Of a DNA stretch of 64,000 bases, positions 1,038-56,974 are shown piece by piece (position 1 is the first letter of the stretch; each line of letters opens with the position of its first letter). The stretch comes from Octopus vulgaris (Eukaryota). The notes under the pieces are model-generated. The model saw nothing but the letters and a program-made list of their open reading frames with translations, made no database searches and was not told the origin of the DNA. Position numbers and translations under genes: made by a program. The stretch covers positions 52,514,001 to 52,578,000 of the forward strand of contig OX597820.1 in NCBI GenBank assembly GCA_951406725.2, given 5' to 3'.

Positions 1038-1074
<37 letters not shown>

Positions 1075-1109
1075 ACGTGTTTGTATGTATGTATATGTTT
1101 GTATGTCTA

Positions 1110-12559: not shown

Positions 12560-12995
12560 AGGCGTAGGAGTGGCTTTGTGTTAAGTAGCTTGCTTACCAA
12601 CCACACGGTTCCGGGTTCAGTCTCACTACGTGGCACCTTGGGCAAGTGCCTTCTACTATAGCCTCGGGCCGACCAAAGCCTTGTGAGTGGATTTGGCAGA
12701 CGGAAACTGTAAGAAGCCCGTTGTGTATATGTATATATATATACATATTTATATATACATATGTATGTGTGTGTATATGTTTGTGTGTCTGTGTTTGTCC
12801 CACCATCATACCTTGATAACCGATGCTGGTGTGTTTATGTCCCAGTAACTTAGCGGTTCGGCAAAAGAGATCGATAGAATAAGTACTAGGCTTACAGAGA
12901 ACATGTCCTGGGGTTTATTTGCTCGACTACAGGCGGTGCTCCAGCATAGCCACAGTCAAATGACTGAAACAAGTAAAAGAGAGTAAAAGAGAGAG
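12560..12995 (+). mobile_element. Full-length tRNA-derived SINE family A with an internal (TA/TG)n microsatellite
   Basis: A-box-like tggctttgtgtt and B-box-like gggttcagtct, then the body gcaccttgggcaagtg...gacggaaactg. An internal microsatellite spans ~12723-12795. The 3' half ends in (gtaaaaga)n. Confidence 0.9.
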
Positions 12996-13989: not shown

Positions 13990-15137
13990 GAAAACAATAT
14001 ACTCACAGAATAACAGAGAGGTTTGCCTGTAATCATATTAGCAAAGCTATGGAAGGTAAAATGTTAAAGGTTTGGAAAAGAATGAGCTTTTCTTCATAGA
14101 AAACAAGAAATTTTGGCCAAACTTCCCTGGGGCATTTAGATAGACGTAACACTAGATGAAAAAATATAGGAGGAAGTTGTAAGCTGTTATTGAGGTAGAA
14201 CACTTTCCGTTTTGTCATCTCATGCTTGATGTATCATGTTAGATTTAGAAACGATATATTTATATGGAGATCTTTCAATGTCCCAATAAGTAGTATACAG
14301 TCAATCTCTTTCTATTTTTTTCTTCAATGATCCCTTTAAGCATTCACAAAGAAATGGGAGTCAGGAACAAGAAATATTATGATCAATCAAAGTGAAACCA
14401 GAAAAAATACGAAACAACAAAGTTTCACCATAATACATAACAATGTTTTCAAAAGCACTTTGAAAGTTGCAAACAACTTGAAAATATCTAAGATTGACAA
14501 AGATACAGATCCTGAAATATATAACCAGTTCGCACGAATGGATTAACAAACAGACCAGAATCAGTATCGCAATGGTTAATAAAGAGAAAATAATATTCAT
14601 TGCCAACATCAGAAATAAACACATTTGCACACCCATCACATGTTTGCTAATAACACAGGCCTCCTTTACATCTGTACGCTACAACTATTTTATCTTACCA
14701 AATGAAAATGAGACTTGGAAATGGGTGGATGGCAGTAATGATCAACTAATAGTAAATTGTGCGATTAGCAATTCAATTTTTTAAATACAAATAAATAAGT
14801 ATTTAGTACGGTGTGAATTCATTGCTGAGAAACATTATGCAACAGGCCACACTTTTCTAAACCATGAAGAAAAACAAAAACCGACAAACCAAATTTCAGA
14901 AGGTTAGTACAATCCAGAAGATATCTCTTTTAGGCTACAGACCTCAACATACGCATGACATTCCCAGTTCAATCCCAAAATCCACACTTCGCATATTCTT
15001 TGCACAACCCATAGATAAAACAAGTTTCACGGTTTATACTCTGTAATCCTCGTCCAATAAAATACGTGAACGAATGTTCCAAATAAACAATACCCGGCGT
15101 TTATAAACGATACTACAACAATAATAATATAAACGCT

Positions 15138-15355
15138 AAGGCGATGAGCTGGCAGAACTGTTAGCACGACGGACGAAATATTAAGCGTTATTTCCTCTAT
15201 CTTTATGTTCTGAGTTCAAACTCCGCCAAGTTCGACTTTGTCTTTCATCATTTCAGGGTTGATAAAATAAGTACCAAGTGAGCACTGGGGACGATGTAAT
15301 TGACTTATCCCCTACCCTCAACTCGCTGGCCTTGTGCCAAAATTTGAAACCAACA
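15138..15355 (+). mobile_element. SINE family B
   Basis: Head aaggcgatgagctggcagaa, B box gagttcaaa, and central gactttgtctttcatc..ggttgataaaataagtacca, as in 62088-62500. Confidence 0.85.
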
Positions 15356-15559
15356 ATAATATATAAATAGATGACAAATATGGAGGACGGCACAAGACGA
15401 TACCGTGTGAGACTGAATAAAAGACTGCTAGAAAATACGATAATAATAAAATATCGAAGAAAAAATAAGTCTGATAAAGGCTAAAACCACCGAGGGCTAT
15501 TCACAGAAATACCACAGACCCACGGTAGGCCTGACCACTAAGTTAAATGAGCTTTCCTC

Positions 15560-19090: not shown

Positions 19091-21459
19091 CTTAGCACTT
19101 CGTCCTTTCGAGGTTGATAATAAAGTGTTGAAGTCTAATACTGAGAGCGATGTAATCGGTTTAGCCCTACCACAAAATACTCAATACTTATAAGCTATAC
19201 GTGAAAGCATATTCACACACAAACAAAAGTACATATGCACACCGCAGAACAGTCGTACACTACGAAACAACACAAATTTATAATCATGAATCTCACTATG
19301 TTACTACATGATATGATATTACACAAAACAAACATATAGTCACCAGCAATACTGTTATCACAATGACACTGGCACACAGCCCGTGCGTATTCACTCATAG
19401 ATTCCTCACCAGCGTCCTTAGAAACAACGCTCAGAAGGTCCAAACAAATACACTGGCAAACAGATACATGCAAATATATTACATACAAATACACATAGTC
19501 ATCAGCGTAAACGACGTCATCACTGTGTCTTCAGACACATCGCTACACACCACTACACACCGCAACGCACCATCATCGCCGCCACCAACAATCTTATGAA
19601 TGAAGCCTTTCTAGTGTGTCCCACACGACTGTTCGTTTGATGTGACAGCATAAAAGTGAAATACCCTACCAACACCATTGCCAATGCGGTGAAGTTACAA
19701 GGATAGAGCAAAGTAGGCTTGCAAGAATATACGCACACACACACATGTGTATATATATGTATATATATGTGTGTGTGTATATATATGTGTGTATATATAT
19801 ATATATGTGTACATATAGTCACACATATATATATATAATTACATATACATATATATATATGTGACTATATGCACATTACATATATATAGTCATATATATA
19901 TATGTATGTATATACGTATATATTCATGTGCATTCATAAACACACACACATACATATGTGCATATATGTGTATATATGTACACAGACATACACACACATG
20001 TATACACACATTCAAACGTCCGCTGACGCACGCATACACACGCGTCAGAAACACAGTGTAAATGGGGAGAGAAGGAAGGGAAGAAATCTGCTGGGGAAGA
20101 CTGGGTTAGAATTATGAACAGAAAATGTTGGTCTAGGAAGGGAGTGAAGTCTTGAAGAAAGATGGAGGGCTATGTGCAGGAGAAGGAGTGTCTTGAACGA
20201 TAGGGGAGAGAGAGAGAGAGTGAAGAGTGGGCAATGCATGGAAATAATGTTGTTAGATGCTGGAGGAAATCTTGTTTGGGAAGAATAGTGTGAGAAAGGG
20301 TAGTAGAGGAAGAGAGAGAAACGTTGCAAGTGAGTAAAAATTTCAAGTGAAAGTTTAAGAAGAATGGAGAAAGTTATAGAAGTGCAGATATAAAAAAAAG
20401 ATAACGGAAAAAGAAAACGTGAAGGAGAGACGGAATGAAGAGAAAAGATGTGAGAGAATAAACGTGATTTTGATGAATGAAAAGTAAGGGAACAGAGAGT
20501 AAGATTGAGTCAATATTAGGAAGATTAAGTTTGTATGGAAGGAGTGGAAAAACAGAGATAGAAAATACAGGAAATGAGTGTGATGAGAGAGGGTAATAAA
20601 CATACGCATACATTCACACGAGGATACACTCACAAACATAACACCTCTCACACACACGCACTCAGGCACGCACGCACGCACATATACAGAGAGAGAGTGG
20701 GGGAATGAGGGAAATAGTGTTATGGAGAGAAAAGAAGAGAATGAGGTAGAGGTTGGTTTGTTAAAGGTCAGAAATACGTAAAAAGGAAAGATACAGAGAA
20801 GGAATTAGAAGATAGAGTTGAAAACCAAGAAGAAAACTCGAGGAAGCTATGTGTGCGGGATAACAGAAAGACTGTGTACGCGTGTGTATGAGGGAGAGAG
20901 ACAGACAGAGGAGGGTGCTCGTGCAAGAAACAGAAAGATCAAAACAGAATAATGACCACTTGATATGAAGCCCAGAAAGTATTCACAAATGTTTATTTTT
21001 CTTTCTTTTTATGCATTAAGGCTTAACATGCGCTTTCTTTCAATTAACCTGCATTTAATACTTGTGTATTATGTATCCCAATATACGGGGTAGTTTTTTT
21101 TTTTTCTTCTGTAAACTAGGGAATTCTCCTTGTCCTTGATAATGTATTTTTCACATATATTTTACGTCCACTGTAAAGGTGAAAGCAAATTTTAACAAGT
21201 ATTAACGCCACCGTATACCTTGTTATACCCCCGTTAGGCCGACGCCAATATCTGTTTATGGTTTGCAAGACATATGATATTGATTCACGAAAGAAGGGTT
21301 TAAAGTCTGAGACACGTTGGGTATAAAAAGGTTGGTGCATCCGGAGGACAAGGACTTACTTGACCACACAAAACGGCAGATATGTAGGTTTTACGATGAA
21401 AGAGACAGAAAGAGGATACAACATGTCATTGGCTAGTGGCTTTGACATATTGATTTTGA

Positions 21460-21640
21460 AATTTTGCGATGAGACCAGTAATTTCGGAAACGAGGTAAGT
21501 CGATTAAATTGTCCCCAATACTTCACGGGTAAATATTTTATCGACCCCGAAAGGATAAAAGGCAAAATCGACATGTGCGAAATTTGAACTCAGAACTGCT
21601 ACAAGCATTTTGACCTGCGTGTCAACGGTTTTGACCAGTT
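21460..21640 (-). mobile_element. SINE family B
   Basis: tttatcgaccccgaaaggataaaaggcaaaatcgac...atttgaactcagaac is the reverse complement of the family B core. Confidence 0.75.
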
Positions 21641-25404: not shown

Positions 25405-25527
25405 ATCGAGCGAACAAAACAATTCAGTGTTCGCGTTGCACCTTAGGCAAGAGTCTTCTTCTGTAGCCTCGAGCCGACCAAAGCCTTGTGAGTGGATTTG
25501 GTAGACGGAATCTGAAAGAAGCCCGTC

Positions 25528-25578
<51 letters not shown>

Positions 25579-26260
25579 CATAAAGGAATACAAAAAAATA
25601 GGGCAAGAACTCAAAACACCCAGACAGATGATACAAAAAAGGGACAGGAAAAACAAGGACGGGTCATTCGGAGTTTTCTTTCCTCAGTTGAGTTCCAGAT
25701 TATCTTTGCAATTTCGGCCGGTTATGCTCGAGATTGCTCCAATCTGGGCAGCCCCAATTAAAAACTAAGCTAAGAGACTAGATTCTTGGAAGAAAGCAGC
25801 GAATGTATACGAAACAATGATGGAAAAACAAAACGAAGAAATGGTACACAAATACAAATGCAAATATAACAGGACATGGTGGGGGAATATAGATGTTTCA
25901 CGGATGGTAGTCGAACCAAGAAAGAAAAGTCAGGCTTGGCCGAAGAACGGTCACGTGGAGAGAGAGAGGAGAGAGGTAGAGGCAGAGGGATATAAAAATT
26001 ATGGAGGGACGAGAAATAAAGAAAAGGGTCATGTGTGGGTGTGTGGGTGTGTGTGTCTGTGCTTGCCCCCACTCCATCGCTTAACAACTGATGTCGGTGT
26101 GTTTACGTGTCTATAACTTAACGGTTCGGCAAAAGAGACCGACAGAGCAAGTACTAGGCTTACAAAGAATAAGTCCTGGGGTTGATTTGTTCGACTAAAG
26201 GGGATGCTCCAGCATGGCCGCAGTCAAATCACTGAAACAAGTATAAGAATAAAAGAATGC
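25405..26260 (+). mobile_element. SINE family A split by a ~450-bp insertion in its internal microsatellite
   Basis: The 5' body lies at 25405-25530 (gcaccttaggcaagag..gacggaatctgaaagaagcccgtcg) and the 3' half at 26055-26260. Unrelated sequence fills ~25585-26030. Confidence 0.8.
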
Positions 26261-29603: not shown

Positions 29604-32600
29604 TCAGAATTTGGGCACTATGGCCCACTCAAGTAGAGAGTTATTGTTTACAGAGACATATCCGGGTGTAGGGGGTTTATCCGGGATTTCTTGAAGGAAT
29701 CTGTCCAAAGACTTCTTGAACCCTATAGGGTCAGTTTCTGTTTTAATGTGTTTTGGTGTAATGTTAAAGAGAGCGGGGCCAATTGAGGTGAAATAATTGT
29801 GCCGTATTGTTGTTATGAGATGAGAGTGCGATTTTTGTTTTGGGCGGATGGCACGGGGCCCAAGCCTTGGATGTACCTTAAAGGTGATGCCAACATCATT
29901 TGGGCAATGCTGATGGAATATTTTCCACATCATGCAGATGATGTAGCGCTCACGACGACGTTGGAGAGAATAGAGTTTTAGCTTTTCTAGTCGACCCCAA
30001 TAGTCGAGGCCTGTCATGCCATCTATCTTTTTTGTGATTGCCCTTTGAGGTGCTTCGACTTTTTTGATACCTTGTATTGTGTGGGGAGACCACAGTGGAC
30101 AACAGTATTCAAGGTGGGGTCGGGCAAAAGTGGAGAAGAGAAGGATAATGGTGTGGATATCTCTCGACTGGAAAGTTCTGAGAATCCAGGAACACATTCT
30201 GCGGGCCATGTCAACTTTGGTGTTTATATGAGTGGCCCAGCTTACGTTGTTGTCCACAATTACTCCCAAGTCTCTGATGTTGTTGGACGCCGCGAGAGTT
30301 TCACCTGAAGGAAGGGAGTATGGGAGTTTCAGGGCATCCTCTTTTCCAAAGTGGATTAGCTCAAATTTATCCTCGTTCAGCAGCATATTGTTTTTTTCTG
30401 CCCATTGGATAACAGCCAGTAGATCTGACTGAAGGCATGTCCGGTCACTCGCCTCATTTATGACCTTCTGTAGCTTGGAGTCATCAGCAAAGATTTTTAT
30501 GTTGCTGTGCTTGATGATGTCATTAATGTCATTAATGTAAATGATGAAAAGAAGTGGGCCCAGCACAGTGCCTTGCGGAACGCCACTACTGACTTTGGCT
30601 GGGCTTGATTTTACCCCTTCAACTACAACCTGTTGAGATCTGTCTGTCAGGAAACACTTAATCCATTTCAGTAACTTTCCAGAGACACCAATGTTGGATA
30701 GTTTTTTCAATAGGATCTTGTGATCGACCCTGTCGAAGGCCTTACTGAAATCAAGGTAGATGACATCGGTGTTGGAGCCCTCTCCCAAAGCTCTCAAAAT
30801 GTCCTCAAAGTGATGCAGGAGCTGCGTTAGGCAGTCCCTTCCATTACGGAACCCATGTTGGTTGGAGATCAGCCGTCTGTTGCTTTCCAGAAATTGGGTT
30901 ATTTGAGATCTCACCACCCTCTCAAATACCTTGATGATATGAGAGGTGAGTGAGATCGGACGGTAATTCACTGCAAGGGACTTGTTTCCCTTTTTGAAAA
31001 CTGGGACAACAGACTGGGACAGAAGGTTTTTTGGAATATAGCCAGCATCCAGTGAGTTTCTCCACAGATTAGCAAGGGGAGATGCAAGTTGGTGTCGACA
31101 CACCTTCAGGACACAAGCAGGGAACCTATCGGGGCCTACTGCTGAATTGTGTTTTATTTCGTTTATCGCCGCTAAGACATCAGGGGCACTAAACGTTATG
31201 TCCGATATAGTGTGTTGGGGGTTGACATCACTGATACAGCCCAGATCGGCCATATCAGGATTGCTGAAAACAGAGCAGTATTGTTTCTGCAGTATCTCGG
31301 CCATGGATTTGGCATTATCTTGGAGAGTGCCAGTTTCGTCAATTAGAGGGCCTACAGTGGAGACAGTGACCCTGCGTTTCCTCGCAAATGAAAAGAACAC
31401 TTTGGGGTTGAGTTTGATTTTTTCAATGGCCCACTTCTCCTCAGCTGATCTTTGGTTATTGATGAGGGACTTCATGCATTGTTGGAGGTTATATTTTTTG
31501 GATTCAAGCAGTGCGATAGCCGTCGAATGTGTGTGTTGCTGTTGGCAGTACTTTAGTTTGTTAATTTTTTTGTTTGTTCTTTTTATTTTTCTGATAATGG
31601 TTTTTCTGTTTTGGGGGATTCTGCACTTTTTGTTCACAGGTCTTGGTGGGGAGTGTTTTGCACATATGTCTGTGACGGTGTCTACAAAGATCTGCCAAGA
31701 TGTTTTATGGTTGGTGGAGATGTGTGTATGTGTAAAGGACCAGTCAACATTTGATAGCTCGTTCCTGATTGCATCCCAGTTGGCTTTATGGAGATCCATG
31801 TTGTCAAATGGGTGGGCTGGAGGAAGGTCACTAGGATTAGCTTTCGGCTGGTGGAATTTCATGTTACAGAGAACCATGTCATGGTCTGAAAGAAGGGTTT
31901 TTTCCACTGTAACGTTATGTATAGTGTTAGTGTGGTTACTAAACACTAGGTCCAAAATGTTCTGATGTCTTGTTGGTGCAAGGACAAGTTGGGACAAGAA
32001 AAACTCATTCGTAAAGTCGAAAAGTGACTCTGCTGCTTCTTTGTCAGCGGTTGAGGCGGGAGTGCTTGGTTTCAAACAGTTTGTAGTCCAGTCAACACAG
32101 GGTAGATTGAAGTCTCCCATCATGAGTATGTTGCTAGAATGGCACTGTTGAATAAAGCACTTAATGCTGTTGAGGCATTCTTTAAAGCACAGTATGGGTG
32201 TTTGGGGCGGCCTATAGAGCCCAATTACTGTCAGATCATTGGCTTTGTTGTGCACGGTGACTGATTCACAGTAGCCGTTGGAGAATATACTATTTCCATC
32301 TGCCGTAAATGAATCATGCAGGAAAATGGCAGTTCCACCCTTCCTCCTGCCGATACGATCCGCGCGGATGGTTGTGAAATTCTTCACTCTCACTTCGGCT
32401 TCCAAGTGGGAGTTGTCAAGGTGGGTCTCAGTGAGAATGAAGAAAGGGATGTGGTGTGAATGGTTACCAACCCAGTCTTCAATGAATTGGACCTTCCATT
32501 TTTGTGCATTGATGGAAGGGCTGACACCTTGTGCATTGAGTAGGAATGTGGAGGTTAGTGTAGTGGCTGGTTTTGACTGTTGCAGAGGGCTTGGATTTTT

Positions 32601-33218
32601 TGTGTGTGTTAGTGGCAGCAATGTGGGGAATTGGTGCACTGGGGTAATAGCATAGGATGGTGTTGAGTGATGGCTAGAATGTTTTTGTAGTATCTCTTTT
32701 GCCATGTTCAACATGGCTAAAGAATTTTCCTGCTTAGGGAGCAGTTTTTGGCTGGAGGTGTGGTTGCACTGTTGGATAGGGTTGTAGTTTCCACTTTTGT
32801 TGTTGTTGTTTTTGTTTTTGTGTCTTCCTGAAAAGACTGGACCAGCATTACTGCAGCATGGTGTGTTTCTATTTTTATTGTTATTCAGGTTTGTGTGTTG
32901 GCTTGAGGCCCCGTTTCTGTTTGTGCGTCGGGTCCCTGGAAGATGAGTGAAGGGACAGTCACTCAGTAGACATGTTCTCTCACGTTGGGAATACCGGCAG
33001 ATTTTGGGACTCCGAGTTGTGTGTGTTTTGAATTTCGATTTACTATTTGGTGGTGTTGATGTTATTGTGGGATGCGTGCTTTGGCCTTGGCCAGTAGTGC
33101 GTCTAGTGCCGGGTAGATGCGTGAAGATGCAGTCACTATTTGTGCAGAGTCTCTGGCGCAGTGAATAGCGGCATATTTGGGGATTTCTTGTTTGTGCCGT
33201 GGGGGCGCATTCTGCTTC
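29604..33218 (-). CDS. LINE pol frame: 2x CCCH zinc finger, APE endonuclease, reverse transcriptase (first ATG at 32714; frame open to 33218)
   Basis: APE motifs: LNAQG, LTETHL, YRPP, MGDFN, PTRH..ILDLVF, SDHD. RT motifs: YRPISLTS, QHGFR, YLDFSKAFDRVDH, SGVPQGTVLGPLLF, FADD. By manual translation the same frame has no stop up to 33218 and includes CRYSLRQRLCTNSDCIFTH (33117-33173) and CRYSQRERTCLLSDCPFTH (32943-32999). Confidence 0.93.
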   Translation of the reverse strand, partial: EAECAPTAQTRNPQICRYSLRQRLCTNSDCIFTHLPGTRRTTGQGQSTHPTITSTPPNSKSKFKTHTTRSPKICRYSQRERTCLLSDCPFTHLPGTRRTNRNGASSQHTNLNNNKNRNTPCCSNAGPVFSGRHKNKNNNNKSGNYNPIQQCNHTSSQKLLPKQENSLAMLNMAKEILQKHSSHHSTPSYAITPVHQFPTLLPLTHTKNPSPLQQSKPATTLTSTFLLNAQGVSPSINAQKWKVQFIEDWVGNHSHHIPFFILTETHLDNSHLEAEVRVKNFTTIRADRIGRRKGGTAIFLHDSFTADGNSIFSNGYCESVTVHNKANDLTVIGLYRPPQTPILCFKECLNSIKCFIQQCHSSNILMMGDFNLPCVDWTTNCLKPSTPASTADKEAAESLFDFTNEFFLSQLVLAPTRHQNILDLVFSNHTNTIHNVTVEKTLLSDHDMVLCNMKFHQPKANPSDLPPAHPFDNMDLHKANWDAIRNELSNVDWSFTHTHISTNHKTSWQIFVDTVTDICAKHSPPRPVNKKCRIPQNRKTIIRKIKRTNKKINKLKYCQQQHTHSTAIALLESKKYNLQQCMKSLINNQRSAEEKWAIEKIKLNPKVFFSFARKRRVTVSTVGPLIDETGTLQDNAKSMAEILQKQYCSVFSNPDMADLGCISDVNPQHTISDITFSAPDVLAAINEIKHNSAVGPDRFPACVLKVCRHQLASPLANLWRNSLDAGYIPKNLLSQSVVPVFKKGNKSLAVNYRPISLTSHIIKVFERVVRSQITQFLESNRRLISNQHGFRNGRDCLTQLLHHFEDILRALGEGSNTDVIYLDFSKAFDRVDHKILLKKLSNIGVSGKLLKWIKCFLTDRSQQVVVEGVKSSPAKVSSGVPQGTVLGPLLFIIYINDINDIIKHSNIKIFADDSKLQKVINEASDRTCLQSDLLAVIQWAEKNNMLLNEDKFELIHFGKEDALKLPYSLPSGETLAASNNIRDLGVIVDNNVSWATHINTKVDMARRMCSWILRTFQSRDIHTIILLFSTFARPHLEYCCPLWSPHTIQGIKKVEAPQRAITKKIDGMTGLDYWGRLEKLKLYSLQRRRERYIICMMWKIFHQHCPNDVGITFKVHPRLGPRAIRPKQKSHSHLITTIRHNYFTSIGPALFNITPKHIKTETDPIGFKKSLDRFLQEIPDKPPTPGYVSVNNNSLLEWAIVPKF

Positions 33219-33841
33219 CTATGTTTCTTTAAGTTTTTGTTACTGCAGTAGTATTGAGGTGGTGATGTGGGGGAAGAGGGCAGTGGTTTCTTATTTGGTT
33301 TTCTGTTGGTATTTTTGGTGATAGAAGACGATGGTGGCAGCGGTGGTGATGATGATGATGATAATTGTGGTGGTTGCTGTGAGAGCGGTGAAAAGATACT
33401 GGCATTTAGTGAATCGTCTAGTAAGCTAGAGTTGAGGAGTGGCTGTTGTTGTTCTTGTTGCTGTGGCTGTTGTTGTTGTTGTTGTGCCTGACCGATGTCA
33501 GGGTCAGCCATTGTGTTGGGAACCAGGAGTGGCTCATTCTGTTGTTGTTGTTGTTGTGGCTGCTGATTTTCTAGCTGTTGTTGTTCTTGAACTGTGAAAA
33601 TATGTAGAAGCTTTTCATAATGGCCTCTTATCAGTTTGAAAGATACTTCGATATGTTTCAACTTGCTACGAATCTGTTTGACGGATCGTGTGTTGACCAC
33701 TTGTGATGTTTTTTCGGCAATCTCATTCAAACACAAGACATTTAGATTTTCTGTCTGGGAAAGAGAGAGCCATGTGTTTATTAAAACATCAATTTCGTTA
33801 TCAGACCAATTTCGTCTGTTGCAGGCCTGCAAGTTAGTCAT
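33062..33841 (-). CDS. LINE N-terminal ORF: Myb/SANT(trihelix)-like domain, polyQ and Ser/Pro-rich linker (last ~45 codons probably out of frame)
   Basis: RRNWSDNEIDVLINTW...NEIAEK....TRSVKQIRSKLKHI fits the Myb/SANT-like pattern R.NW...E...LI..W...IA......R...Q...K. It is followed by polyQ and S/P-rich low-complexity sequence. Confidence 0.72.
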   Translation of the reverse strand: MTNLQACNRRNWSDNEIDVLINTWLSLSQTENLNVLCLNEIAEKTSQVVNTRSVKQIRSKLKHIEVSFKLIRGHYEKLLHIFTVQEQQQLENQQPQQQQQQNEPLLVPNTMADPDIGQAQQQQQQPQQQEQQQPLLNSSLLDDSLNASIFSPLSQQPPQLSSSSSPPLPPSSSITKNTNRKPNKKPLPSSPTSPPQYYCSNKNLKKHRKQNAPPRHKQEIPKYAAIHCARDSAQIVTASSRIYPALDALLAKAKARIPQ

Positions 33842-34134
33842 GTTTGTTTTTCTTTTGTTTGTTTTCCTTTTGATTTTTGAAAATATATATATTCTTTCTT
33901 GGGAGTTAAAGAAGTGTATATATATATAAATGTTCTCTCTTAAGGGTGTGAGTTTTTGATTATTTGGTTGTTTGAGGATATTAAAAGAAAAACAGGTGTA
34001 TATAACAATTTGTAGTTAAATGAAAACGTACTTACGGGTTTGTAGGCAAACACGTGGTTACAAATATATATATATTTAAGGTCAGTTAGTTTTGAAGCTG
34101 TGTAGCTTGCTACTGACTCGGGAGAGAAACAAAT

Positions 34135-35696: not shown

Positions 35697-36252
35697 CAAA
35701 CTAATCAACACATATATTTTGTAATACTTTCTAACTAGCATCATCTAATTCATCTACTACAACTTTATAAGCATTTATTCTTCTGTATTTCGAGGTCCTC
35801 CTTTTCTTTTTTGTGTAATACACCCTTTGCCATAGTATAAAATTAACTATTTCACAATAATTAAAGTATCTAAAAAAAAATTATAATTTTAGCAGCTAAA
35901 TTTTTGTAGTTTTTTTCTCAATACCGATTATTTACTTTGTAAAAAACGTTACCTGTAAAAATGAATGTATAAGAACGAAAATATGGGCTGACTAGTGAAA
36001 TACAGCTAATTACCTTGAAAGGTTCAGGTAAAGACATATGAAAGTTTTAAAATATTGGAACTAAATTTTGAATTTGAATTTAGTATGTCTTCTGTAGATT
36101 GTGCTACAAAGGGGTAAATGTTAGCAACATATAAAAGAGATGACTAGAGTACCCTTGCGACATATGCGTTCAACTTTGCGGGGCCAGTTTCTTTCCCCCG
36201 TAGCACCCTTTCATATGCATCCATGAGCACATAGCCAATAGTTTGTGCTGAT

Positions 36253-36431
36253 CTATATTTAAGAGATTAGGAATTATGTACATTATTTACATTATTTACA
36301 TTTGACGGATATTTGTCCTCATCTTGTTTGTTGTAAACTCAATGTTTCGGCTGATATACCCTCCAGTCTTCCTCAGGTGTCTTGGGGATATTTCGAACCT
36401 GGGTTCTCATCCCTAACGTATTTTTCTATGC

Positions 36432-36498
<67 letters not shown>

Positions 36499-36606
36499 GT
36501 TATTATTATTATTAATCTTATTATTATTCAAGTCACTGCTTGGAATCGGACTCGGGATCTAGGGGTTAGTAGCTCGCGCTCTTAACCACTACGCCATATG
36601 CCCGTG
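36253..36606 (-). mobile_element. tRNA-headed SINE-like element with (AAT)n spacer and hammerhead-containing body (family H)
   Basis: Reverse complement of the 49905-50205 element: head gggcatatggcgtagtggttaagagcgcg, then (AAT)n, then a body with a mutated hammerhead (gacac-ctgagga..cagcc-gaaacatt). Confidence 0.85.
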
Positions 36607-36612
36607 AGCATA

Positions 36613-36769
36613 TAATAATAGCATCGAAAAATACCTTAGGAATGAGAACACAGGTTCGAAATTTCCCCAAGACACCTGATGAAGGCTGGAGGGTATATCA
36701 GCCGAAACGTTGTGTTAACAACAAGCAAGATGAGGACAAATATCTGTCAATTGTAAATAACGTAAATAA
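36613..36769 (+). mobile_element. Inverted partial duplicate of the family H body
   Basis: Same body sequence as 36253-36440 in opposite orientation. It lacks the tRNA head and starts 7 nt from the 5' end of the minus-strand copy. Confidence 0.85.
36671..36716 (+). ncRNA. Minimal type I hammerhead ribozyme motif
   Basis: gacac-CTGATGA-a-ggctg(gagggtatat)cagcc-GAAAC-GTT-gtgtt. Stem I is gacac/gtgtt, the core is intact, stem II has 5 bp, and stem III is the loopless palindrome AACGTT. Confidence 0.8.
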
Positions 36770-37433
36770 GTTTATGATGAGTCTGAGGAAAATAAATAAA
36801 CTCTTGTGCATTATGTTAAAGAGTAGTTTGTTTGATCAAGTTTTGTAGACGTCACGAATTTCTGGATATCAAGAGCCCATCAATGTTTGATTTTTAGATC
36901 TTCAGTGGCATAGACGCCGAAATATTTGTGTCATGTGGGGAGGAATTTCGTTTGAAGGTGGAAGAAATTAGGTTCCACGAAAATCACCACAGGAGTTATC
37001 TCTCTCTAATTCTGAACCAACTAAATGTTATTGCCTATTTGACTCGGCACGTTTAAGAGCTTTCTGAGCACAATCCCCGCCCCCTAAATGAAGACACATT
37101 TCTGTAAGCCTAAATTCCCACTCAGCTCTGTGTTGGAAAACCATGAGAGAAAGATTACAGTGAATCATAAATGAGTAATTGAAACCTCCTCCTGTAATCC
37201 ACTATATATTATTTGATCGAAAATAAACATAAGGAAACAATTTCCTTCATTAAGTGAGACGTGTGTGCTTTTACATTTGAATGAAAATATAATCAGCATA
37301 TCATTTTTATTTCACATCAAAATTCTTATAGAATACGTTTAAACATCCACTTCTTGCGAATATATATTCCAACATTAATTAAAAGTATTATCTATCACAC
37401 CTGCATCCAAAATCTTCCTACTGATCTATACAA

Positions 37434-38737: not shown

Positions 38738-41412
38738 TGTGTATGTGTGTGGGTGTGGGTGTGGGTGTATGTATGTGTGTGTGTGTGTGTATGTGTGTAC
38801 GTAAGAGAGTACGGGAGAGAAGTGGAAGATGAAGAGGCGAAAGCAGCTATGAGAAATGAGTGAGAATGAATATGCATGAGTATTTATATAGAACTCTCTC
38901 TCTCTCTCTCTCCCCTCTCTTTCCTTTCTCACTCTTTATATTTCTCTCTCTCTCTCTTTCTATTTCTGTCACTCACCATCTCTGTGAGTTCCTGTCTATG
39001 TTTAGGAAAGAGAGAAACAAACCGAGAGTAAGATACAGAGTAGAGTGGGAGAGAGGCAAAAACCAATGTGAAACACAGAAAATAGAGAAGTATATATGTG
39101 AATGTTTGCGTGAATATTTATTAGTGTGTGCATAAATGTATCTACGTATGCGTGTGTGTATCTGTGTTCGTGTATAAATTTCTCATACTTCTTCCTCATT
39201 TGCAAATTTGTTTACGCTATTGACACCGTGTTTGAAACTCATAATCTGTTTTCATTTAAATGCATTATTGGACATGAATATTGTATCTGATATTTTTATA
39301 TCCATTACATTTTCAACAGAGATGTAATAGATATAACTCTGTATAGAAAATTGGGAGAAACGTTTAATTAATGTATTATGAAACCAGAACACTTGAGATC
39401 TTGCTTTATTTTATATAATTTTCTGCCTAGCCTTACAAATATGTAATCTTCTAATCTAAGAACCAATATCGAGTAAAAAATTATTAGGGACACCCCCTGA
39501 GAGAATAAGCAACAGCAGTACTAAAGGAGCTAACACAATGTAGAGAAATACTCAAAATTACTCTTGTAGGGTGCACATAAAAATAAGCTTCATATTTCTG
39601 GCCAAGAAAAGCAAGAGAGACAATTGCGATATTTAAATATATTAAAATAAACTAAATAGCGAAGGCAACAGTGAGTGAGTCTTCTTATTTTCAATATGGC
39701 CACACGTCTTGGTTTTATTACACCTCCTCAGTGAGATATTGTGTTACTCTGAAATCAGTATCATACTCACGGGTTACAATATAGAAACTGTAAGGTTCCT
39801 TCTCCAGTCGCATTAAATATACACCAGTCTTTCTCGCTTAGGGATGAGACACATAAAGATCACTTAGTGAGGCAACTTAGCTAGATCTGCTAACAACAGA
39901 GATGCTAGAATGTTTTCTAGTAAGTATGGTAGTAGCTTTGTTTTTAGCAAACATTTAAGACAGCAAGAAACCACTGGTGTGTGACGTAGAATAGAAAATT
40001 TTGCTTAAAATCTAACGCTAACAGATTGAAGATCGTAAAAGAAAAAAGGGTGGGAAGGAGAGTGGGGAGAAGACAGAAAGAAATGTAGACAAACAGATAC
40101 ATATAGAAAATTACAAATAGCGATATTTTGAAAGTGATTAAGAACGTAGTTGTTTACTATGGTTTCTGTCAATAAAGCTTCTCTATTTGGTTTATGTTTA
40201 TGAAAAGCGAATATACGTGTATAAGATCGAGGTCGTAGGCTAGAGGTTTACATCTATGCAGTTTCTCTTGAAACAGAAGACCGTATTGCACTTTGTCCTG
40301 ACACTTTCTGTACACCCGAACAATGCGAGTTACATTTGTATTCAGAATGATGACTTGACTGAATTAATACTAATCTTGGCATCACCTCATTAAGTATGAT
40401 TTACTTTCATGCAGCAGACGTTGCTGGGTAAATCCCACGGTTATTATTTTATAGAATGTTAGTGAACAGAGTTAAGAAACCTGTATGTCTAAGGAATTGA
40501 TCACACTTTCATTAGATGTGATTAGTGTGTGCATGTGTGAGTGCGGTTGTGTGTGTATGTGTGTGTGTGTATGCATGCGGGTATGTATGTGTGTATGTAT
40601 GCGCGCGCGTATGTTTCTACTACAGAAAGAAATATTGAAGAATTCGGTTGTGATAGAAGGTAGTTCTGCAGCCAATACTTTTGAATCTTTCATTAAAATG
40701 TCTCAACTAATTTTACTGAAAATTATTCCTTCCACTTCTCAACAACAAAATCATACACTGCCCTTCCTATTTTGCCACAAACTCCCAGCTACGCATACCT
40801 AGAGGCCGTCTTCTAATTACACCGCCATTTATACACACACGCCAAATACAAAATAATATTTGATCGCTTCCAACCAACTAGCTCTCCGATCCTGACCGTG
40901 TCCCTTCCATTACCCACAAACATTGAGCTCCAGAACCAGCCCCCCCTTTTTTTTTTTACCAAACTTTACACTTCTCCCTTCTATTTCGAATTTATCTGTT
41001 GTTTTTCCTGATAATCATCTAGCATAAGTTGTTGCGAAGTTAAACTTCAACGCTACGTAAGTTAATTTCTTAAGATTTTAAGATTTCAGGGTGTTTGTTA
41101 GTTTAATTTATGTTAGTCATGGAGGGCTATACCTTGTATAGCTCTTATAACTTGCAACACAAATTACTGAAGGCGTCAACGTGGGTCAGAATGAATTTGC
41201 ATTTGTAGCAAATAATAATTAACGCGGAATTTGCTGGAGCTAAATAAGATATGCTGATTTCAACTAGCACCCTTCCATATGCCTCTTAATTTAATTAGGA
41301 GCTAACTGGAATAAGTGAACTAGAAGGGCCTAAATTAAATTGCAATTTTGAAAGTCAGTGCTTGCGTTTTATCGCAATTCCAAACTAAAGATGATTTACG
41401 ACGATATCATAT

Positions 41413-42024
41413 ACTCTTTTACTCTTTACTCTTTTACTTGTTTCAGTCATTTGACTGCGGCCATGCTGGATCACCGCCTTTAGTCGAGCAAATCGACCCC
41501 GGGACTTATTCTTTGTAAGCCCAGTACTTATTCTATCGGTCTCTTTTGCCGAACCGCTAAGTGACGGGGACGTAAATACACCAGCATCGGTTGTCAAGCA
41601 ATGCTAGGGGGACAAACACAGACACACAAACACACACACACACACACACACATACATATATATATACCTTGGATTTTCTTTACCTCTTGGATACTTACAT
41701 CGGCTGCACCTCTCTTTCGCGGATCAAAGTGACTTTGCATTGATGTGAAATCCTTAAAAAATATACCACGACGTCTACACATTTCTCACCTTGAACTTTC
41801 AACCTTGAACTTGTTCGCATAAACTGTCCCGTTTGTTGTATTTTTATTTTCTCTTATATTTCTTTCTGTGTTTTTCTCTCTCTGTGTATCTTTCTGTTGA
41901 AGAGCGTAGGCTCGAAACGTTAAAGACTTGTTTTATTTTATATTTCCTGAGCGCCATACTAATACAATTGTTCGTTTGTTTTCCACCTGCCTTCGTCTTT
42001 TGTTTATTTTCATAAAGCTTCCCG

Positions 42025-42073
<49 letters not shown>

Positions 42074-42240
42074 TACGACAGGCTTCTTTCAAGTTTCCGT
42101 CTACCAAATCCATTCACAAGGCATTGGTCGGCCCGGGGCTATAGCAGAAGACACTTGCCCAAGATGCCACGCAGTGGGACTGAACCCGGAACCATGTGGT
42201 TGGTTAGCAAGCTACTTACCACACAGCCACTCCTGCGCCT
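41413..42240 (-). mobile_element. SINE family A split by an insertion in its internal microsatellite
   Basis: The 3' half (41413-41625) and 5' head/body (42073-42240) are both on the minus strand. An unrelated segment at 41668-42025 lies between (CA)/(TA) tracts. Confidence 0.85.
41889..41926 (+). ncRNA. Hammerhead-like motif with a non-canonical core (CTGTTGA)
   Basis: tcttt-CTGTTGA-a-gagc(gtag)gctc-GAAAC-GTT-aaaga. Stems I and II are perfect and stem III is palindromic, but core A6 is T. Confidence 0.55.
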
Positions 42241-42936
42241 ATGAACCATTTCAAATGCAAACATGCTCCTAGAATTTCTACTTATATTTAAAAGATACAA
42301 TACAATCTTTTTTTTTTCTCTCTGAAGTGATTCTTTGTGTTTAAAACTAACCAAAAATACAACCTATCCCAGAAACAATATAATGTACTGATGTGTGCTG
42401 GTTGAACTAAGATTTCCTGCTCTTGGTGAATGACATTAGATCTCTGGCCCAGACTGCCCGGCTCCAAAGTTGTGAGACTTGTACAGGGTCCGGTGCCAGT
42501 ACGATTCGTAGGTTTGTGGCTAACCATCATTAGAATTTCGTATCTAATCATCAACTTTAATCAAAAAGTGAGATGCGTTACTTGTATGATTCGGAAATAT
42601 CAATTCAGAAGGTTTAACCAGGATGTTTGATGCTTGATGTTAGATCCTGCATACCGTATTCTCTTCACTGAGAATCAGGCCGGGTTGATGGCTCGTGTTG
42701 ATCGACCACACGCCACATGGTCACGGCAGATGAGGAGATATCTTGTGGAACTGAGTACCGACTGGGATTCTGCTTGATGGGTTGTCTGGGAGGACCTAAG
42801 AATATACCGACAAATGGTCAATGCATCAACACACTGCAAAAGCGCATGTTTCCACATCTGACTTGATTCGTGCAAACGTGTATGTATGTGTGTGAGTGTG
42901 AATGTATGCATGCGTATGTGTGTACAAAAATACTTG

Positions 42937-43991: not shown

Positions 43992-44553
43992 TAGAATTAT
44001 TAATATTTCTAAGTCTCTCTAAAGGAGACTACGGCAGCGGTACTGGATATTAATTGTTATCGCCAAGCTAACATGGCAATCCAGAAAAATAGGACGAATG
44101 CTGCCATTGATTAGCTCTAAGAGGCCATTACCTCTAGATATGTGACACAGGAACATGTGTCCATTATAACCTTCGAACAGGGGAGATCAGCCGCTTCCCC
44201 TTGCTGGTCTAGCATCTACAGACTAGTATCAGGGTATTTGCACCTTAGAAATATTAATATTTCTATTTTTGAGAACTAGTAGATGTATTCCATTGGATTT
44301 TATATAAATAATCCTTCGAACAGACAGTCAGTAGCAACACCTGCTGAGTTCGGCTGCTCTACATTGATAAGGGTAAATACCCTGAAACTAGTCTGTAGAT
44401 GCCAGACCAGCAAAGGGAAGCGGCTGACCTCCCCTGATCGAAAGTTATAATGGACACAGGTTCGTGTGTCACATAGCTAGCTAGAGGCGATGGCGGCAGC
44501 ATTCGTCCTATTGTTCTGGACTACCATGTAAGCTTGGTGATAACTATTAATAT
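43992..44553. repeat. Long inverted repeat pair (arms ~44047-44246 and ~44369-44553), Penelope-terminal-repeat-like
   Basis: The arms are reverse complements (e.g. ggggagatcagccgcttccccttgctggtctagcatctacagactagt versus actagtctgtagatgccagaccagcaaagggaagcggctgacctcccc). A hammerhead motif overlaps the start of the right arm. Confidence 0.85.
44358..44399 (+). ncRNA. Type I hammerhead motif, U3-A8 core variant
   Basis: tctaca-TTGATAA-gggt(aaat)accc-t-GAAAC-ta-GTC-tgtaga. Stem I has 6 bp, stem II has 4 bp, stem III is the palindrome ACTAGT, and the cleavage triplet is GUC. Confidence 0.65.
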
Positions 44554-47496: not shown

Positions 47497-48154
47497 ATAC
47501 TCATATGTACACATATATACATATATATTTATACATATATATATATATATACATATATACATACATATATTACATATATGCATACATATATATACATATA
47601 TACATACACATATATACATATATATATGCTTACACATACATACATATTAAACGAATACTGAAAACGGAGAAGAACCGTTGAACAGGATATACAGAAAAAT
47701 CAAAACCACGCAAATAAATAATGTTGGTGTGTTGCTATTCGTCTCAAAAAGGTCAATTTCATGCTTCATTAGGCGAGTTTGTTGGTATGTGAAACGGCTG
47801 TAGGCAAAGACCATACGTAAATCACTGAACGAATCAATATTAGACACTGGCCTAATGATACAGGCAGCCATATGTGCCTGTATACATACATTCTCTCAGA
47901 TGTTTTTCTTTATCATTTAGCTACCTCATAATTGTACCCATTGTTTGGTTCTTTTCTATATATTTTAGAGAAATAATTATCTCTCTAGTTCGTTATTGAT
48001 ATTGATTTTCTTGCGTCCATACTGATATAGATTTTTTTTCTTCTAATCTATTTATGTATATTTATAGACATATTTATCACGAATACATTCACACGAGGTG
48101 TACGTGAACTGTGCAGACACAGACAAGAACACACAGACTCGTACACACATATTT

Positions 48155-48335
48155 TTTACTTGTTTCAATCATTAGACTGCGGCCATGCTAGAGTACAGCC
48201 TAGGGGATCTTTTAGTCGAATAAATTGACCCCAGTACTTATTCTATCGATTTCTTTTCCCGAACTGCTAGGTAACAGGGATCTAAAAACACCAACACCAG
48301 TTTTCAAGCGGTGGTGGTTGGGGAGACAGAGACAC

Positions 48336-48389
<54 letters not shown>

Positions 48390-49800
48390 ACACACTCACA
48401 CTCACACACACAGACACACACACATACAAATATATTCACAGATGACAGAAGAAAATAAACAACCGTTAAAATTTATTTCGATCTGAAATTATACATTAAA
48501 ATTATTTATTATTATCATGTAAATATCTAATAGTTAGTAGACATACCCATTGTATTTTTCAATGCAAGGACCCTATTAGACATGCTACTGGTCAGATGAC
48601 GAATATTCTTTAGAGGAATATCTTGCCAAATTTTATGCCGTAATCTCAACAGATCTGGCTTTGGAGATGATTTCTTGTTCTTTTTAAGAGTTGCCTTCTT
48701 TATTATGACCCAGAGATGTTCAATAGGTTTCACATCTAGTTACTGGCTTGGTCAGGGAAGCTTTTTACAACCATTCTCTTCCAACCAATCTTGGGTCTTT
48801 TTCGCATGTGACAAGGAGCCCCACCTTCCATAAATAAAGTCTTCTCTAATCATTTCACCACTGGTGTAGATTGGAAGGAGTCCATCTGCAATAAGGACAC
48901 ATATTTATCTGAGTTTGTTTCCTTTACACTCCATCAGCTCTAATCCACCATAGCTCTAAATTGCTCCCCGAACCTTCACAGAATAGCTTCCGTGTTTCAT
49001 TGTTGGCTGCAATATTTTACGTCAAATTCTTGATCACAGAGTCCCCAGACCAACACTCAGCTACTGTCAGAAAATACAGCAAATCTGGACTCATCAGAGA
49101 ATAAGACAAGTGTCCAAAAATGCTGGTGGCCTCGTCTCCATCTCAGTGGGCCAATCATTTCTCCATTTGATATTGGCTGGTGGAAGAAGCCTTTTTTGTT
49201 TCTCCGGCATAGTAGCCAAGTTTGTGGAGACACCTAGCAACTAGTTCTGCTGTGTAAAAGGCCTTGCAACTAGGATTATCCTCCACACTTCCCTTAACAA
49301 AGCGAAGCGTCCGATCAGAATACTCTGGTCGACCTAGGGGAGGTAATGTGGATTCATTCCCCTCTCAAGTAAATTGTACAATCACTGATTTAACTGTAGA
49401 AAGCAGGATCCCAAGGTCTTCTGTAATTTTACGCTAAGTCCAACTAGAGATTGACCCACAGTACAACTTTTCAAATTCGGACAGTTCCAGGGCATTTTTT
49501 GCAAGTGGCATGATTAAAGAGTCGCATTTAGAACCTGAAGCATAAAAATGTCAATTAATAAAATATATTAACCTTTTCAAGTTAAAATAAACATAAAATG
49601 ATGTTTTGTGGGGTGTCTATTTACTTCTGTTATGTCTATGTATATATCTGTATATACAACAGGCTTCTTTAGGTTTCCGTTTATCATATCCACTCACATG
49701 GCTTTGGTCGGCATTGGGCTATAGAATAAGAAACTTTTCCAAAGTTTCATGAAGTGAGACTGAACCCGGAACCAAGCTTCTTACCACACAGCCACGCCAG
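48155..49800 (-). mobile_element. SINE family A interrupted by a Tc1 element
   Basis: The 3' half (48155-48335) and 5' part (49655-49800) are on the minus strand and flank the Tc1 at the internal microsatellite. Confidence 0.75.
48437..49638 (-). mobile_element. Defective Tc1 (DD34E) transposon, copy 1
   Basis: TIR-like ends gatgacagaagaaaataaacaacc / ggtgtctatttacttctgttatgtc. The transposase pseudogene (48527-49511) has a paired-like N-terminus, FSDESRF, FMEGGAP, KPIEHLW and SMSNRV..GMSTNY*. Confidence 0.85.
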
Positions 49801-49904
49801 ACATGTTTTGCATTAAACATTCGTATATATATGTATGTAATATATGTGAGCTTGTGTGCGGGTGATACACTCACAAGAACGCGCACGTACTCCCGCAACT
49901 GCAC

Positions 49905-50000
49905 GGGCATGTGGCGTAGTGGTTAAGAGCGTGAGCTACTAACCCCAAGATTCCGAGTTCGATCCCGGGCAGTGACCTGAATAATAATAATAATAATAAT

Positions 50001-50031
<31 letters not shown>

Positions 50032-50205
50032 TAACTTAGGAATGAGAACCCATGTTCGAAATTTCCCCAGGACACCTGATGAAGGTTGGGGGGGGGGGTA
50101 TATCAGCCGAAACGTTGTGTTAACAATAAGATGAGGACAAATATCCGTCAATTGTAAATAATGTAAATTAATATACATAATTCCTCATCTTTTAAATACA
50201 GAACT
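49905..50205 (+). mobile_element. Full copy of the tRNA-headed, hammerhead-containing SINE-like element (family H)
   Basis: A box tggcgtagtgg (49912-49922), B box gagttcgatcc (49955-49965), (AAT)/(AAC)n at 49980-50032, a body with a hammerhead at 50071-50121, and an AT-rich end. Confidence 0.88.
50071..50121 (+). ncRNA. Minimal type I hammerhead ribozyme motif
   Basis: gacac-CTGATGA-a-ggttg(...)cagcc-GAAAC-GTT-gtgtt, the same as 36671-36716 but with a G-U wobble in stem II and a poly-G loop. Confidence 0.75.
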
Positions 50206-50233
50206 GAACTGACACACATATATGTATGTATAT

Positions 50234-55949: not shown

Positions 55950-56940
55950 ATTATTGGGTTCAAAATGGTACGTTGAAAGGCATAGTCGACTTCGGCGGAA
56001 TTTGAACTGAGAACGTAGTGACAGGCGAAATATAGTGCTAGGCATTTTCTCCAGCACGCTAATGATTCTACCGGCTCGCCGTCTAAATAATAATAAAGTT
56101 CTGAACTTTGAGGAAGGGGACTAGTCGATTACATCGATCCAAGCACTTAGCTAGTACTTATTTTATCGACCCCGAAAGGACGAAAGGTAATGTCAACCTC
56201 GGAGGAATTCGAATTTAGAACATAGCAGCAGACAAAATACCTATTTCTTTATTACCCACAAGGGGCTAAACACAGAGGGGACAAACAAGGACAGACATAG
56301 GTATTAAGTCGATTACATCGACCCCAGTGCGTAACTGGTACTTGATTTATCGACCCCGAAAGGATGAAAGGCAAAGTCGACCTCGGCGGAATTCGAACTC
56401 ACAACGTAACGCAGACGAAATACCGCAACGCATTTCTCCCGTCGTGCTAACCATTCTGCCAGCTCGCAACCTCCCACCTTAATAATAATAATAATAATAA
56501 TAATCCTTTCTGCTGGAAGCACAAGGCCTCAAATTCGGGGGAAGGGATTATGTCGATTACATCGACACCAGTGCGTAACTGGAATTTATTTAATCGACTT
56601 CGAAAAGATTAAAAGTAAGATCACCCTTGGTGAAAATTGAACTCAGAACGTAGCGGCACCGAAATACCGCTAAGCATTTCGCCCGGCGTGCTAACGTTTC
56701 TGCCAGCTCACCTCCTTAATAATAATAAAGGTCTCAAATTTTGGCACAAGTCCAATAGGTTTGTGGGCGAGGTTAGTCGATTGCATCTACCGCAGTGTTC
56801 AATTGGTTCTTATTTTATCGACTCCGAAAGAATAAAAGGCAAAGATGACCTCGGTGGATTTTGAACTCAAAACTTATAGACGGACGAAATGCTGTTAAGC
56901 ATATTCTCAGGCAGGCTAAAGATTATGCCAGCTCACCGCT
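55950..56940 (-). mobile_element. Head-to-tail cluster of ~5 SINE family B copies
   Basis: Repeated tttatcgaccccgaaagga..aaaggcaaagtcgacctcggcggaattcgaactca units. Each ends at a gccagctc(g/a)c head, and several are separated by short (AAT)n. Confidence 0.85.
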
Positions 56941-56974
56941 TGCATAATAATGATATTTATAATAATATTTATAC

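What the first reader, a model, noticed from the sequence alone, without database searches (positions are those of the whole stretch)
36253..36769. Hammerhead-bearing tRNA-SINE with a Penelope-style inverted 5' duplication
Seen: a minus-strand element (tRNA head, (AAT)n, hammerhead body) is abutted at its 5' end by an inverted, headless copy of its own body, which carries an intact hammerhead. Known: Penelope-like elements have minimal hammerheads in their terminal repeats and often leave an inverted partial repeat at the 5' end of insertions; most SINEs rely on LINEs. Inference: this is a Pol III-driven, self-cleaving non-autonomous retroelement mobilised by a Penelope-like RT, a SINE/retrozyme hybrid.
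Basis: partly seen in the sequence, partly recalled or inferred. Interest (0 to 1): 0.85.

Follow-up and report, generated by a model that had tools for sequence, protein, structure and literature searches.

The report
Penelope retrotransposon with tRNA-promoter terminal repeat
This is not a separate SINE but two head-to-head copies of the terminal repeat of a protein-coding Penelope retrotransposon, and that repeat carries a tRNA-derived promoter sequence that likely lets RNA polymerase III transcribe the element, a design not found described for Penelope elements in the literature searches run here.

Summary
In detail: 158-nt inverted arms, 91% alike; tRNA-like head, (AAT)n, minimal type I hammerhead. 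The label is wrong. Head-(AAT)n-body-tail is the pseudo-LTR of an autonomous Penelope/Poseidon-type element (RT + GIY-YIG-type endonuclease). The head follows the ORF stop by about 35 nt in 28 of 30 endonuclease-picked loci, the 'body' encodes the ORF's N-terminus, and 122 solo and 41 ORF-linked repeats show no fixed difference. The locus is one insertion with a 12-bp target-site duplication. Of 79 inverted pairs, 65 have one tailed and one untailed end and 51 have a TSD-like repeat (9% when shuffled), as twin priming from two RT start sites predicts. New: intact A and B boxes in the pseudo-LTR; 33 of 52 copies that reach the head stop at its 5' end; no T4 run in about 2,480 sense-strand ORF columns, while 30 of 30 related ORFs have at least one. 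This suggests a Pol III-transcribed autonomous retroelement (about even odds, untested). A hairpin at the same spot explains the 5' pile-up equally well. Roughly 50,000 decayed insertions.

The parts
36240..36251 (.). Left target-site duplication, 12 bp
   Evidence: 10 of 12 identical to 36769-36780
36252..36281 (-). Penelope 'tail' (30-40-nt extension), present on this arm only
   Evidence: Profile match to position 175 of 177; in full-length copies the same sequence runs straight into the ORF
36282..36432 (-). pLTR body, arm 1, with damaged hammerhead (core 36370-36376)
36433..36528 (-). (AAT)n tract inside the pLTR
   Evidence: variable length in every copy set
36529..36603 (-). tRNA-derived head; A box 36586-36596, B box 36542-36553; tRNA +1 at 36603
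   Evidence: follows the ORF stop in 28 of 30 loci
36596..36613 (.). Fold-back junction at the hairpin that overlaps the tRNA start
   Evidence: Native hairpin folds at -9.1 kcal/mol with a CACG loop; 431 exact fold-back matches genome-wide, some counted twice
36606..36769 (+). Arm 2: about 8 nt of head, AAT remnant, body ending at the pLTR end without tail
36642..36767 (+). First 42 codons of the Penelope ORF (in-frame ATG at 36642; use as start codon inferred)
   Evidence: the same frame aligns with the N-terminus of the intact relative P0003
36671..36716 (+). Intact minimal type I hammerhead, predicted cut after GUU at 36711, needs a dimer
   Evidence: 1,117 exact matches of the 41-nt motif genome-wide, 0 for the reversed control
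36769..36780 (.). Right target-site duplication
49903..50206 (+). Second, non-inverted solo pLTR of the same family (head, AAT/AAC, body, tail)

Best explanation
The locus is a single insertion of two head-to-head copies of the pseudo-LTR of an autonomous Penelope-like retrotransposon, likely made by twin priming, and the tRNA-derived head of that repeat likely serves as an internal RNA polymerase III promoter. Shown: the element reads pLTR - ORF (N-terminal domain, RT, GIY-YIG-type endonuclease) - 35-nt spacer - tRNA head - (AAT)n - hammerhead/ORF start - tail. Inferred: transcription starts at or a few bases before the tRNA +1 and runs through the repeat into the ORF, which has no T4 terminator. 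The element's protein nicks both target strands 12-13 bp apart and primes two cDNAs inside the RNA, one at the tail end and one at the pLTR end, as the Anolis Poseidon protein does in vitro. Each cDNA runs back to the RNA 5' end or stops earlier, and the two join head to head, often through the palindromic hairpin at the tRNA start. Most products are therefore short, SINE-looking solo or inverted repeats. The hammerhead would cut only as a dimer or with protein help and was mostly uncut in the copied RNAs. Odds: pLTR identity 0.95, twin priming 0.75, Pol III promoter 0.5.
For: ORF link: head about 35 nt after the stop in 28 of 30 endonuclease-picked loci; L077 is pLTR-ORF-pLTR; L061 has a 569-aa open frame with RVT_1 at E 2.7e-6, just under the Pfam cut-off, 55% identical to the 847-aa P0003. 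The body frame aligns with P0003's N-terminus, E 7e-39. No fixed difference between 41 ORF-linked and 122 solo repeats. Twin priming: 65 of 79 inverted pairs are tail + no tail; TSD score >=6 in 51 of 79 (9% shuffled) and >=8 in 39 of 79 (1.3%), commonest length 12-13 bp; two RT start sites and both-strand cleavage for PAc (PMC11167929). Pol III: A and B boxes intact; of 90 units picked on the 3' body, 52 reach the head and 33 end at -14 to +8, against 7 in the head interior; 25 of 30 head-picked loci stop within about 15 nt of +1. No T4 run in 2,480 columns; synonymous-shuffle mean 2.8, P 0.03, second null P 0.007; decayed copies 0.45 T4/kb, below all 30 related ORFs (0.8-11 per kb), none with A/B boxes downstream.
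Against: No direct transcript evidence: unstranded RNA-seq of another organism mirrors the DNA depth, 71-76% of laid reads run on into unrelated sequence, and no start site stands out. The 5' pile-up coincides with a hairpin; 12 of the 33 ends lie exactly at its outer edge (-7) and are all fold-backs. The T4 result is modest: the strand is T-poor (21.5%), G4 runs are absent too, and three single natural copies tested alone were not significant (P 0.36-0.92). The A/B regex finds only 9 of 30 and 15 of 30 of this family's own decayed copies, so 0 of 30 in relatives is a soft negative. Some templates began upstream of the head: 4 of 8 upstream pLTRs that reach the head's 5' end continue into a preceding spacer or ORF end. 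How an uncapped Pol III RNA would be translated is unexplained. Arms of one locus share rare variants more than chance (46 of 574 against 2%), so some pairs may be snap-back copies of one cDNA.
Confidence: 0.6

Rival explanations
1. Ordinary Penelope element with a passive tRNA or SINE relic. Pol II or read-through makes the RNA, and the pile-up of 5' ends comes only from RT pausing and fold-back at the hairpin overlapping the tRNA start.
For: Hairpin of -9.1 kcal/mol; 12 ends exactly at -7, all inverted; exact fold-back junctions (431, some double) are as common as the native spacer junction (369) among 2,173 heads that keep the hairpin loop; tandems that start upstream of the head exist.
Against: Leaves the absence of T4 runs to chance (P 0.007-0.03; 0 of 30 relatives lack them). 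Both boxes are intact while the cloverleaf is not (ARAGORN negative). The 6 non-inverted head-start copies begin at 0 to +7, not at the fold-back edge.
Confidence: 0.35
2. One reading: a separate, non-autonomous tRNA-SINE/retrozyme family with its own source genes, mobilised in trans by a Penelope RT.
For: Only 1 of 14 insertions in a random 800 kb has ORF sequence; solo copies have a Pol III-type head; solo copies could be re-transcribed.
Against: The same head sits in nearly every ORF-bearing copy (28 of 30); same polymorphisms at similar frequencies in solo and ORF-linked repeats, smallest p 0.007 among 32 columns; PAc needs ORF sequence beyond the tail to bind its template (PMC11167929), which solo copies lack.
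Confidence: 0.1
3. The inversion is a snap-back: one cDNA folds at the hairpin and primes its own second strand, so both arms come from one molecule.
For: Junctions continue with the reverse complement of the head, not the native spacer; arms share subfamily variants (5 shared and 4 unshared at hammerhead position 7, p 6e-5).
Against: A snap-back copy should not stop at the second canonical end, yet 65 of 79 pairs have one tail end and one pLTR end inside a 12-13-bp TSD; arms often differ at subfamily sites (position 131: 2 shared, 9 unshared).
Confidence: 0.25

Closest known systems
Poseidon_Ac (PAc) and other Penelope/Poseidon PLEs (PMC11167929, PMC8557442, PMC4209133)
   Same: Single ORF with RT and C-terminal endonuclease; pLTRs in partial tandem; inverted 5'-truncated copies; 30-40-nt tail at one end; minimal type I hammerhead overlapping the ORF start; two 3' end classes.
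   Different: tRNA-derived A/B-box head and (AAT)n tract inside the pLTR; no T4 on the sense strand; sharp 5' boundary at the head. None of this appears in the passages read.
TRIMp3: Cassandra, Helenus, Ajax (PMC10886601)
   Same: Small-RNA-derived Pol III promoter inside the terminal repeat of a retroelement; boxes kept, RNA fold lost; proposed origin by SINE insertion into the repeat.
   Different: Those are non-autonomous LTR elements of 311-1,263 bp whose length the author ties to Pol III processivity. This one is a Penelope element of about 2.75 kb that encodes its own RT.
Schistosome SMalpha and animal non-LTR retrozymes (PMC8490949, PMC7761336, bioRxiv 10.64898/2026.07.22.740005)
   Same: Short repeats with a type I hammerhead; retrozymes proposed to derive from PLE pLTRs.
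   Different: Non-coding, mostly tandem arrays. Here the unit is the live terminal repeat and ORF start of the autonomous element, dispersed as solo and inverted copies.
Octopus tRNA-SINEs OK/OR1/OR2 and 'Twister' (names recalled, from no call)
   Same: tRNA-derived heads, OR1/OR2 recalled as tRNA-Arg related; the best tRNA match here is Arg.
   Different: Sequences could not be obtained, so identity with a named family is untested.

Membership tests
Penelope-like element (EN+) | Single ORF with RT | tested here: met
   RVT_1 E 2.7e-6 on L061, 27.7 bits against cut-off 29.6; 55% to P0003, RVT_1 E 6e-11; 2,989 homologues
Penelope-like element (EN+) | C-terminal GIY-YIG endonuclease | tested here: met
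   Indirect: no Pfam hit on this family's own domain; motif YSIPCSCGRLYKGET present; relative P0069 (40% over 98% of L061) hits PF01541 above cut-off
Penelope-like element (EN+) | pLTRs in partial tandem and inverted 5'-truncated copies | tested here: met
   L077 pLTR-ORF-pLTR; 7 of 14 random insertions have an inverted partner
Penelope-like element (EN+) | [quoted passage not shown] | tested here: met
   65 of 79 inverted pairs; read ends pile at both end classes
Penelope-like element (EN+) | Minimal type I hammerhead in the pLTR | tested here: met
   By sequence and fold; the only common non-CpG variant in the catalytic core is at the free position 7; Rfam gave no match
Penelope/Poseidon clade | No extra Zn-finger-like linker between RT and EN; phylogenetic placement | tested here: inconclusive
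   No CxxC linker seen in L061 or P0003; no tree with named reference families was built
tRNA-SINE | tRNA-derived head with A and B boxes | tested here: met
tRNA-SINE | Non-autonomous family separate from its partner retroelement | tested here: not met
   Head is part of the autonomous element in 28 of 30 loci; no fixed solo versus ORF-linked difference
tRNA-SINE | Transcription by Pol III | not testable with these tools
   Indirect only; RNA-seq uninformative
Non-LTR retrozyme | Non-coding tandem arrays with a hammerhead in each unit | tested here: not met
   Copies are dispersed solos, inverted pairs or short tandems with ORF pieces; the body is coding
Non-LTR retrozyme | Self-cleavage and circular RNA | not testable with these tools
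   3 of 90 copies start at 93-96, cut at 92
TRIMp3 (Helenus/Cassandra/Ajax) | Non-autonomous LTR element with PBS and PPT, 4-5-bp TSD | tested here: not met
   Encodes a Penelope RT; TSD 12-13 bp; PBS and PPT not searched for

The most novel reading that the evidence does not exclude
An autonomous, protein-coding retrotransposon transcribed by RNA polymerase III: a Penelope element captured a tRNA or SINE promoter into its pseudo-LTR, purged T4 terminators from its whole 2.75-kb unit, and so became its own SINE, scattering tens of thousands of SINE-looking terminal repeats. It would be the autonomous counterpart of TRIMp3 and a route by which SINE-like families arise without a LINE.
Probability: 0.35. 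Interest if true: 0.85.

Novelty: new variant of a known kind. Interest (0 to 1): 0.62.

Why it matters
If Pol III drives it, it breaks the working rule that Pol III retroelements are short and non-coding, and it makes the open question of what promotes Penelope transcription testable with one B-box mutation. Whatever the polymerase, the junction counts give in-vivo support for a twin-priming model of Penelope inversions (12-13-bp TSD, one tail end and one pLTR end), extending the PAc in-vitro result. Practically, short copies of this family will be annotated as tRNA-SINEs or tRNA pseudogenes, and their inverted pairs are likely double-stranded RNA substrates for editing (inference).

Tried and rejected
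Rfam and ARAGORN: no hammerhead or tRNA match. A GT-AG mini-intron spanning the tail was considered and rejected: the unspliced frame is conserved in P0003 and no such joint was among the best-supported rows (268 joints not shown). Pfam found nothing on two short L021 pieces. No RNA holder was listed on record for the stretch. RNA-seq of organism B is unstranded and cannot show polymerase or start. The first metagenome scan with P0003 found no relative; the alignment scan gave 80 loci, of which 30 had a distinct open frame of 400 aa or more and were counted, 50 dropped. An unconstrained dimer fold did not give the active dimer conformation. The search with P0001 returned 69 matches, best 70% identity, and no closer sister family. 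Hammerhead cleavage as the main source of 5' ends: not supported (3 of 90); a weak hint remains in 24 of 41 ORF-adjacent upstream repeats starting at profile positions 84-151 against 4 at 16-83 (imprecise bounds). Earlier-findings look-ups returned nothing. Two papers could not be read (PMC4795812, PMC5785218).

Full report
Observation. The window holds an inverted repeat with 158-nt arms, 91% complementary, at 36283-36440 and 36612-36769. On the minus strand the left part reads tRNA-like head, (AAT)n, body, tail. The plus arm carries a minimal type I hammerhead: stem I GACAC/GTGTT, CTGATGA, one extra base, 6-bp stem II, then GAAAC-GTT with a palindromic ACGT and no loop III. This matches the min-HHR described for Penelope pLTRs (PMC4209133, parts 1-2 of 4 read). 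Rfam and ARAGORN do not recognise either feature. The head is 49/73 and 51/73 identical to two tRNA-Arg types, the best among 30 tRNA loci fetched from this genome. A second, non-inverted copy lies at 49903-50206.

It is a large family. The genome G000 is 2.8 Gb; the host is probably an octopus (inference from size and composition). The 41-nt hammerhead motif has 1,117 exact matches, control 0; five 27-nt body variants total 10,679. In 80 evenly spaced 10-kb stretches, 14 held an insertion, 7 with an inverted partner and 1 with ORF sequence, which scales to roughly 50,000 sites (Poisson range about 27,000-82,000). Copies depart 5.6% (body) and 7.9% (head) from the commonest letter. Contigs of four other organisms carry the same ORF end, spacer, head and body with the same majority letters, so the burst predates their split.

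It is the terminal repeat of an autonomous Penelope element. Among the first 30 body-picked loci, L002, L005 and L021 had endonuclease-like coding sequence directly upstream. Of 30 loci picked with that protein piece, 28 have the head about 35 nt after the stop; L031 lacks it and L059 keeps only its first bases. L077 reads pLTR, tail, ORF, spacer, head, (AAT)n, body. L061 has a 569-aa open frame with an RT match, 55% identical to the intact 847-aa P0003; a 40%-identical relative hits GIY-YIG. The body is coding: the window's plus arm translates to 42 residues in the frame that aligns with P0003's N-terminus through the hammerhead and tail. PAc likewise starts its ORF within the hammerhead (PMC11167929, parts 1-2 of 4 read). 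Among 256 distinct repeats, 41 ORF-linked and 122 solo copies show no fixed difference (93 had no head upstream). No whole ORF was seen: the longest open frames listed were 569-649 aa, against 847 aa for P0003, but only top candidates are scored.

How the inversion forms. In 79 distinct inverted pairs, 65 have a tail on one arm and the pLTR end on the other; 9 have two pLTR ends and 5 two tails. A direct repeat flanks the whole structure: score >=6 in 51 of 79 against 9% of shuffled pairs, >=8 in 39 of 79 against 1.3%, commonest length 12-13 bp. The window's locus has one of 12 bp with 2 mismatches. PAc cuts both strands, starts reverse transcription at two sites that bracket the tail, and is modelled as a dimer (PMC11167929). 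Twin priming, one start site per nick, explains this pattern (inference). The tail at one end only and the inverted 5' copy are known PLE marks (PMC8557442, passages). Arms share rare variants more than chance, 46 of 574 against 2%, so snap-back from one cDNA is not excluded.

The new part is the head. It has intact A and B boxes. Among 90 units picked on the 3' body alone, 16 end in the body, 22 at the (AAT)n tract, 7 in the head interior, 33 at -14 to +8 around tRNA +1, 4 in the spacer and 8 in the ORF (some units are partner arms of one locus, two are a duplicated insertion). Of 30 head-picked loci, 25 stop there, 21 with an inverted piece abutting. A hairpin overlaps the same spot; 12 of the 33 ends are exact fold-backs at its edge, and fold-back junctions are about as common as native ones genome-wide. 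The 6 non-inverted head-start copies begin at 0 to +7. Start site and hairpin stop cannot be told apart by position.

A prediction of the Pol III reading is that the sense strand lacks T4 terminators. Counting the commonest letter per column over 2,480 ORF columns (mostly 24-68 copies deep) gives 0 T4 runs, 30 A4, 7 C4, 0 G4. Synonymous shuffles expect 2.8 (P 0.03), a second null 3.8 (P 0.007). No T4 site is shared by more than 13% of copies, and decayed copies average 0.45 per kb. All 30 related ORFs from metagenome contigs have at least one, 0.8-11 per kb, including five with similar T content, and none shows A/B boxes within 500 nt downstream. Three single natural copies tested alone were not significant. 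This is suggestive, not proof. RNA-seq of another organism was unstranded and mirrored DNA depth.

Two further patterns. In 56 lower-ranked loci holding the ORF start, 36 ORF pieces end 146-270 nt past the tail, most followed by another repeat piece in the same direction (the picking favours short pieces). This fits template jumps onto short RNAs that run from the pLTR into the ORF. The hammerhead cut is not a main source of 5' ends (3 of 90), in line with PAc using uncut RNA; the only common non-CpG variant in its catalytic core is at the free position 7, which suggests the source elements kept it functional.

Comparison with what is known. PLE anatomy, hammerhead and inversions are known. 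Retrozymes as PLE derivatives are proposed (bioRxiv 10.64898/2026.07.22.740005, part 1 of 5 and passages; no mention of tRNA, Pol III or octopus in its main text). SMalpha is a hammerhead-bearing SINE-like repeat (PMC8490949, passages). Pol III promoters in terminal repeats are known for non-autonomous LTR elements (PMC10886601, abstract and passages; no mention of Penelope). PMC7761336 and PMC8967140 (passages) and PMC13282606 (parts 1-2 of 3, supplement searched) do not describe this structure; PMC11874977 (passages) was irrelevant. Searches for Penelope with pLTR and tRNA, with polymerase III and tRNA-derived (0 papers), with SINE and hammerhead, with non-autonomous SINE and with twin priming listed nothing describing a tRNA-headed pLTR. 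Repbase, Dfam, the Zenodo library of PMC13282606 and bioRxiv supplements could not be seen and may hold this family under some name.

Verdict. New variant of a known kind; interest 0.62. The boldest reading, a Pol III-transcribed autonomous retroelement, gets 0.35.

Noticed in passing
window 29607-34015, minus strand: An apparently intact LINE: 1,204-aa open frame with APE endonuclease and RT, preceded by a 317-aa frame with a Myb/SANT-like domain. Possibly young.
   Followed up: partly
window 1038-1333, 12557-12991, 25433-26256, 41402-42242, 48150-48395, 49631-49798: At least two other dispersed repeat families of 200-300 nt, several copies each.
   Followed up: no
window 55974-56951 and 62073-63794: Clusters of short repeats in mixed direct and inverted arrangement, also matching 15137-15366 and 21444-21597.
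   Followed up: no
window 44047-44553: A 500-nt stretch that matches its own reverse complement at 72%, MITE-like or another fold-back.
   Followed up: no
L136:5914-6031, minus strand: A different tRNA-headed repeat with A and B boxes but another body, a candidate relative of the head's source.
   Followed up: no
L177, L178, L179 (G000:C1, 7.93, 8.95 and 9.05 Mb): Three near-identical copies of one ORF-bearing insertion, suggesting a segmental duplication or assembly repeat.
   Followed up: no
L397-L476: Many related Penelope ORFs in metagenome contigs have a minimal hammerhead 46-264 nt after the stop codon.
   Followed up: partly
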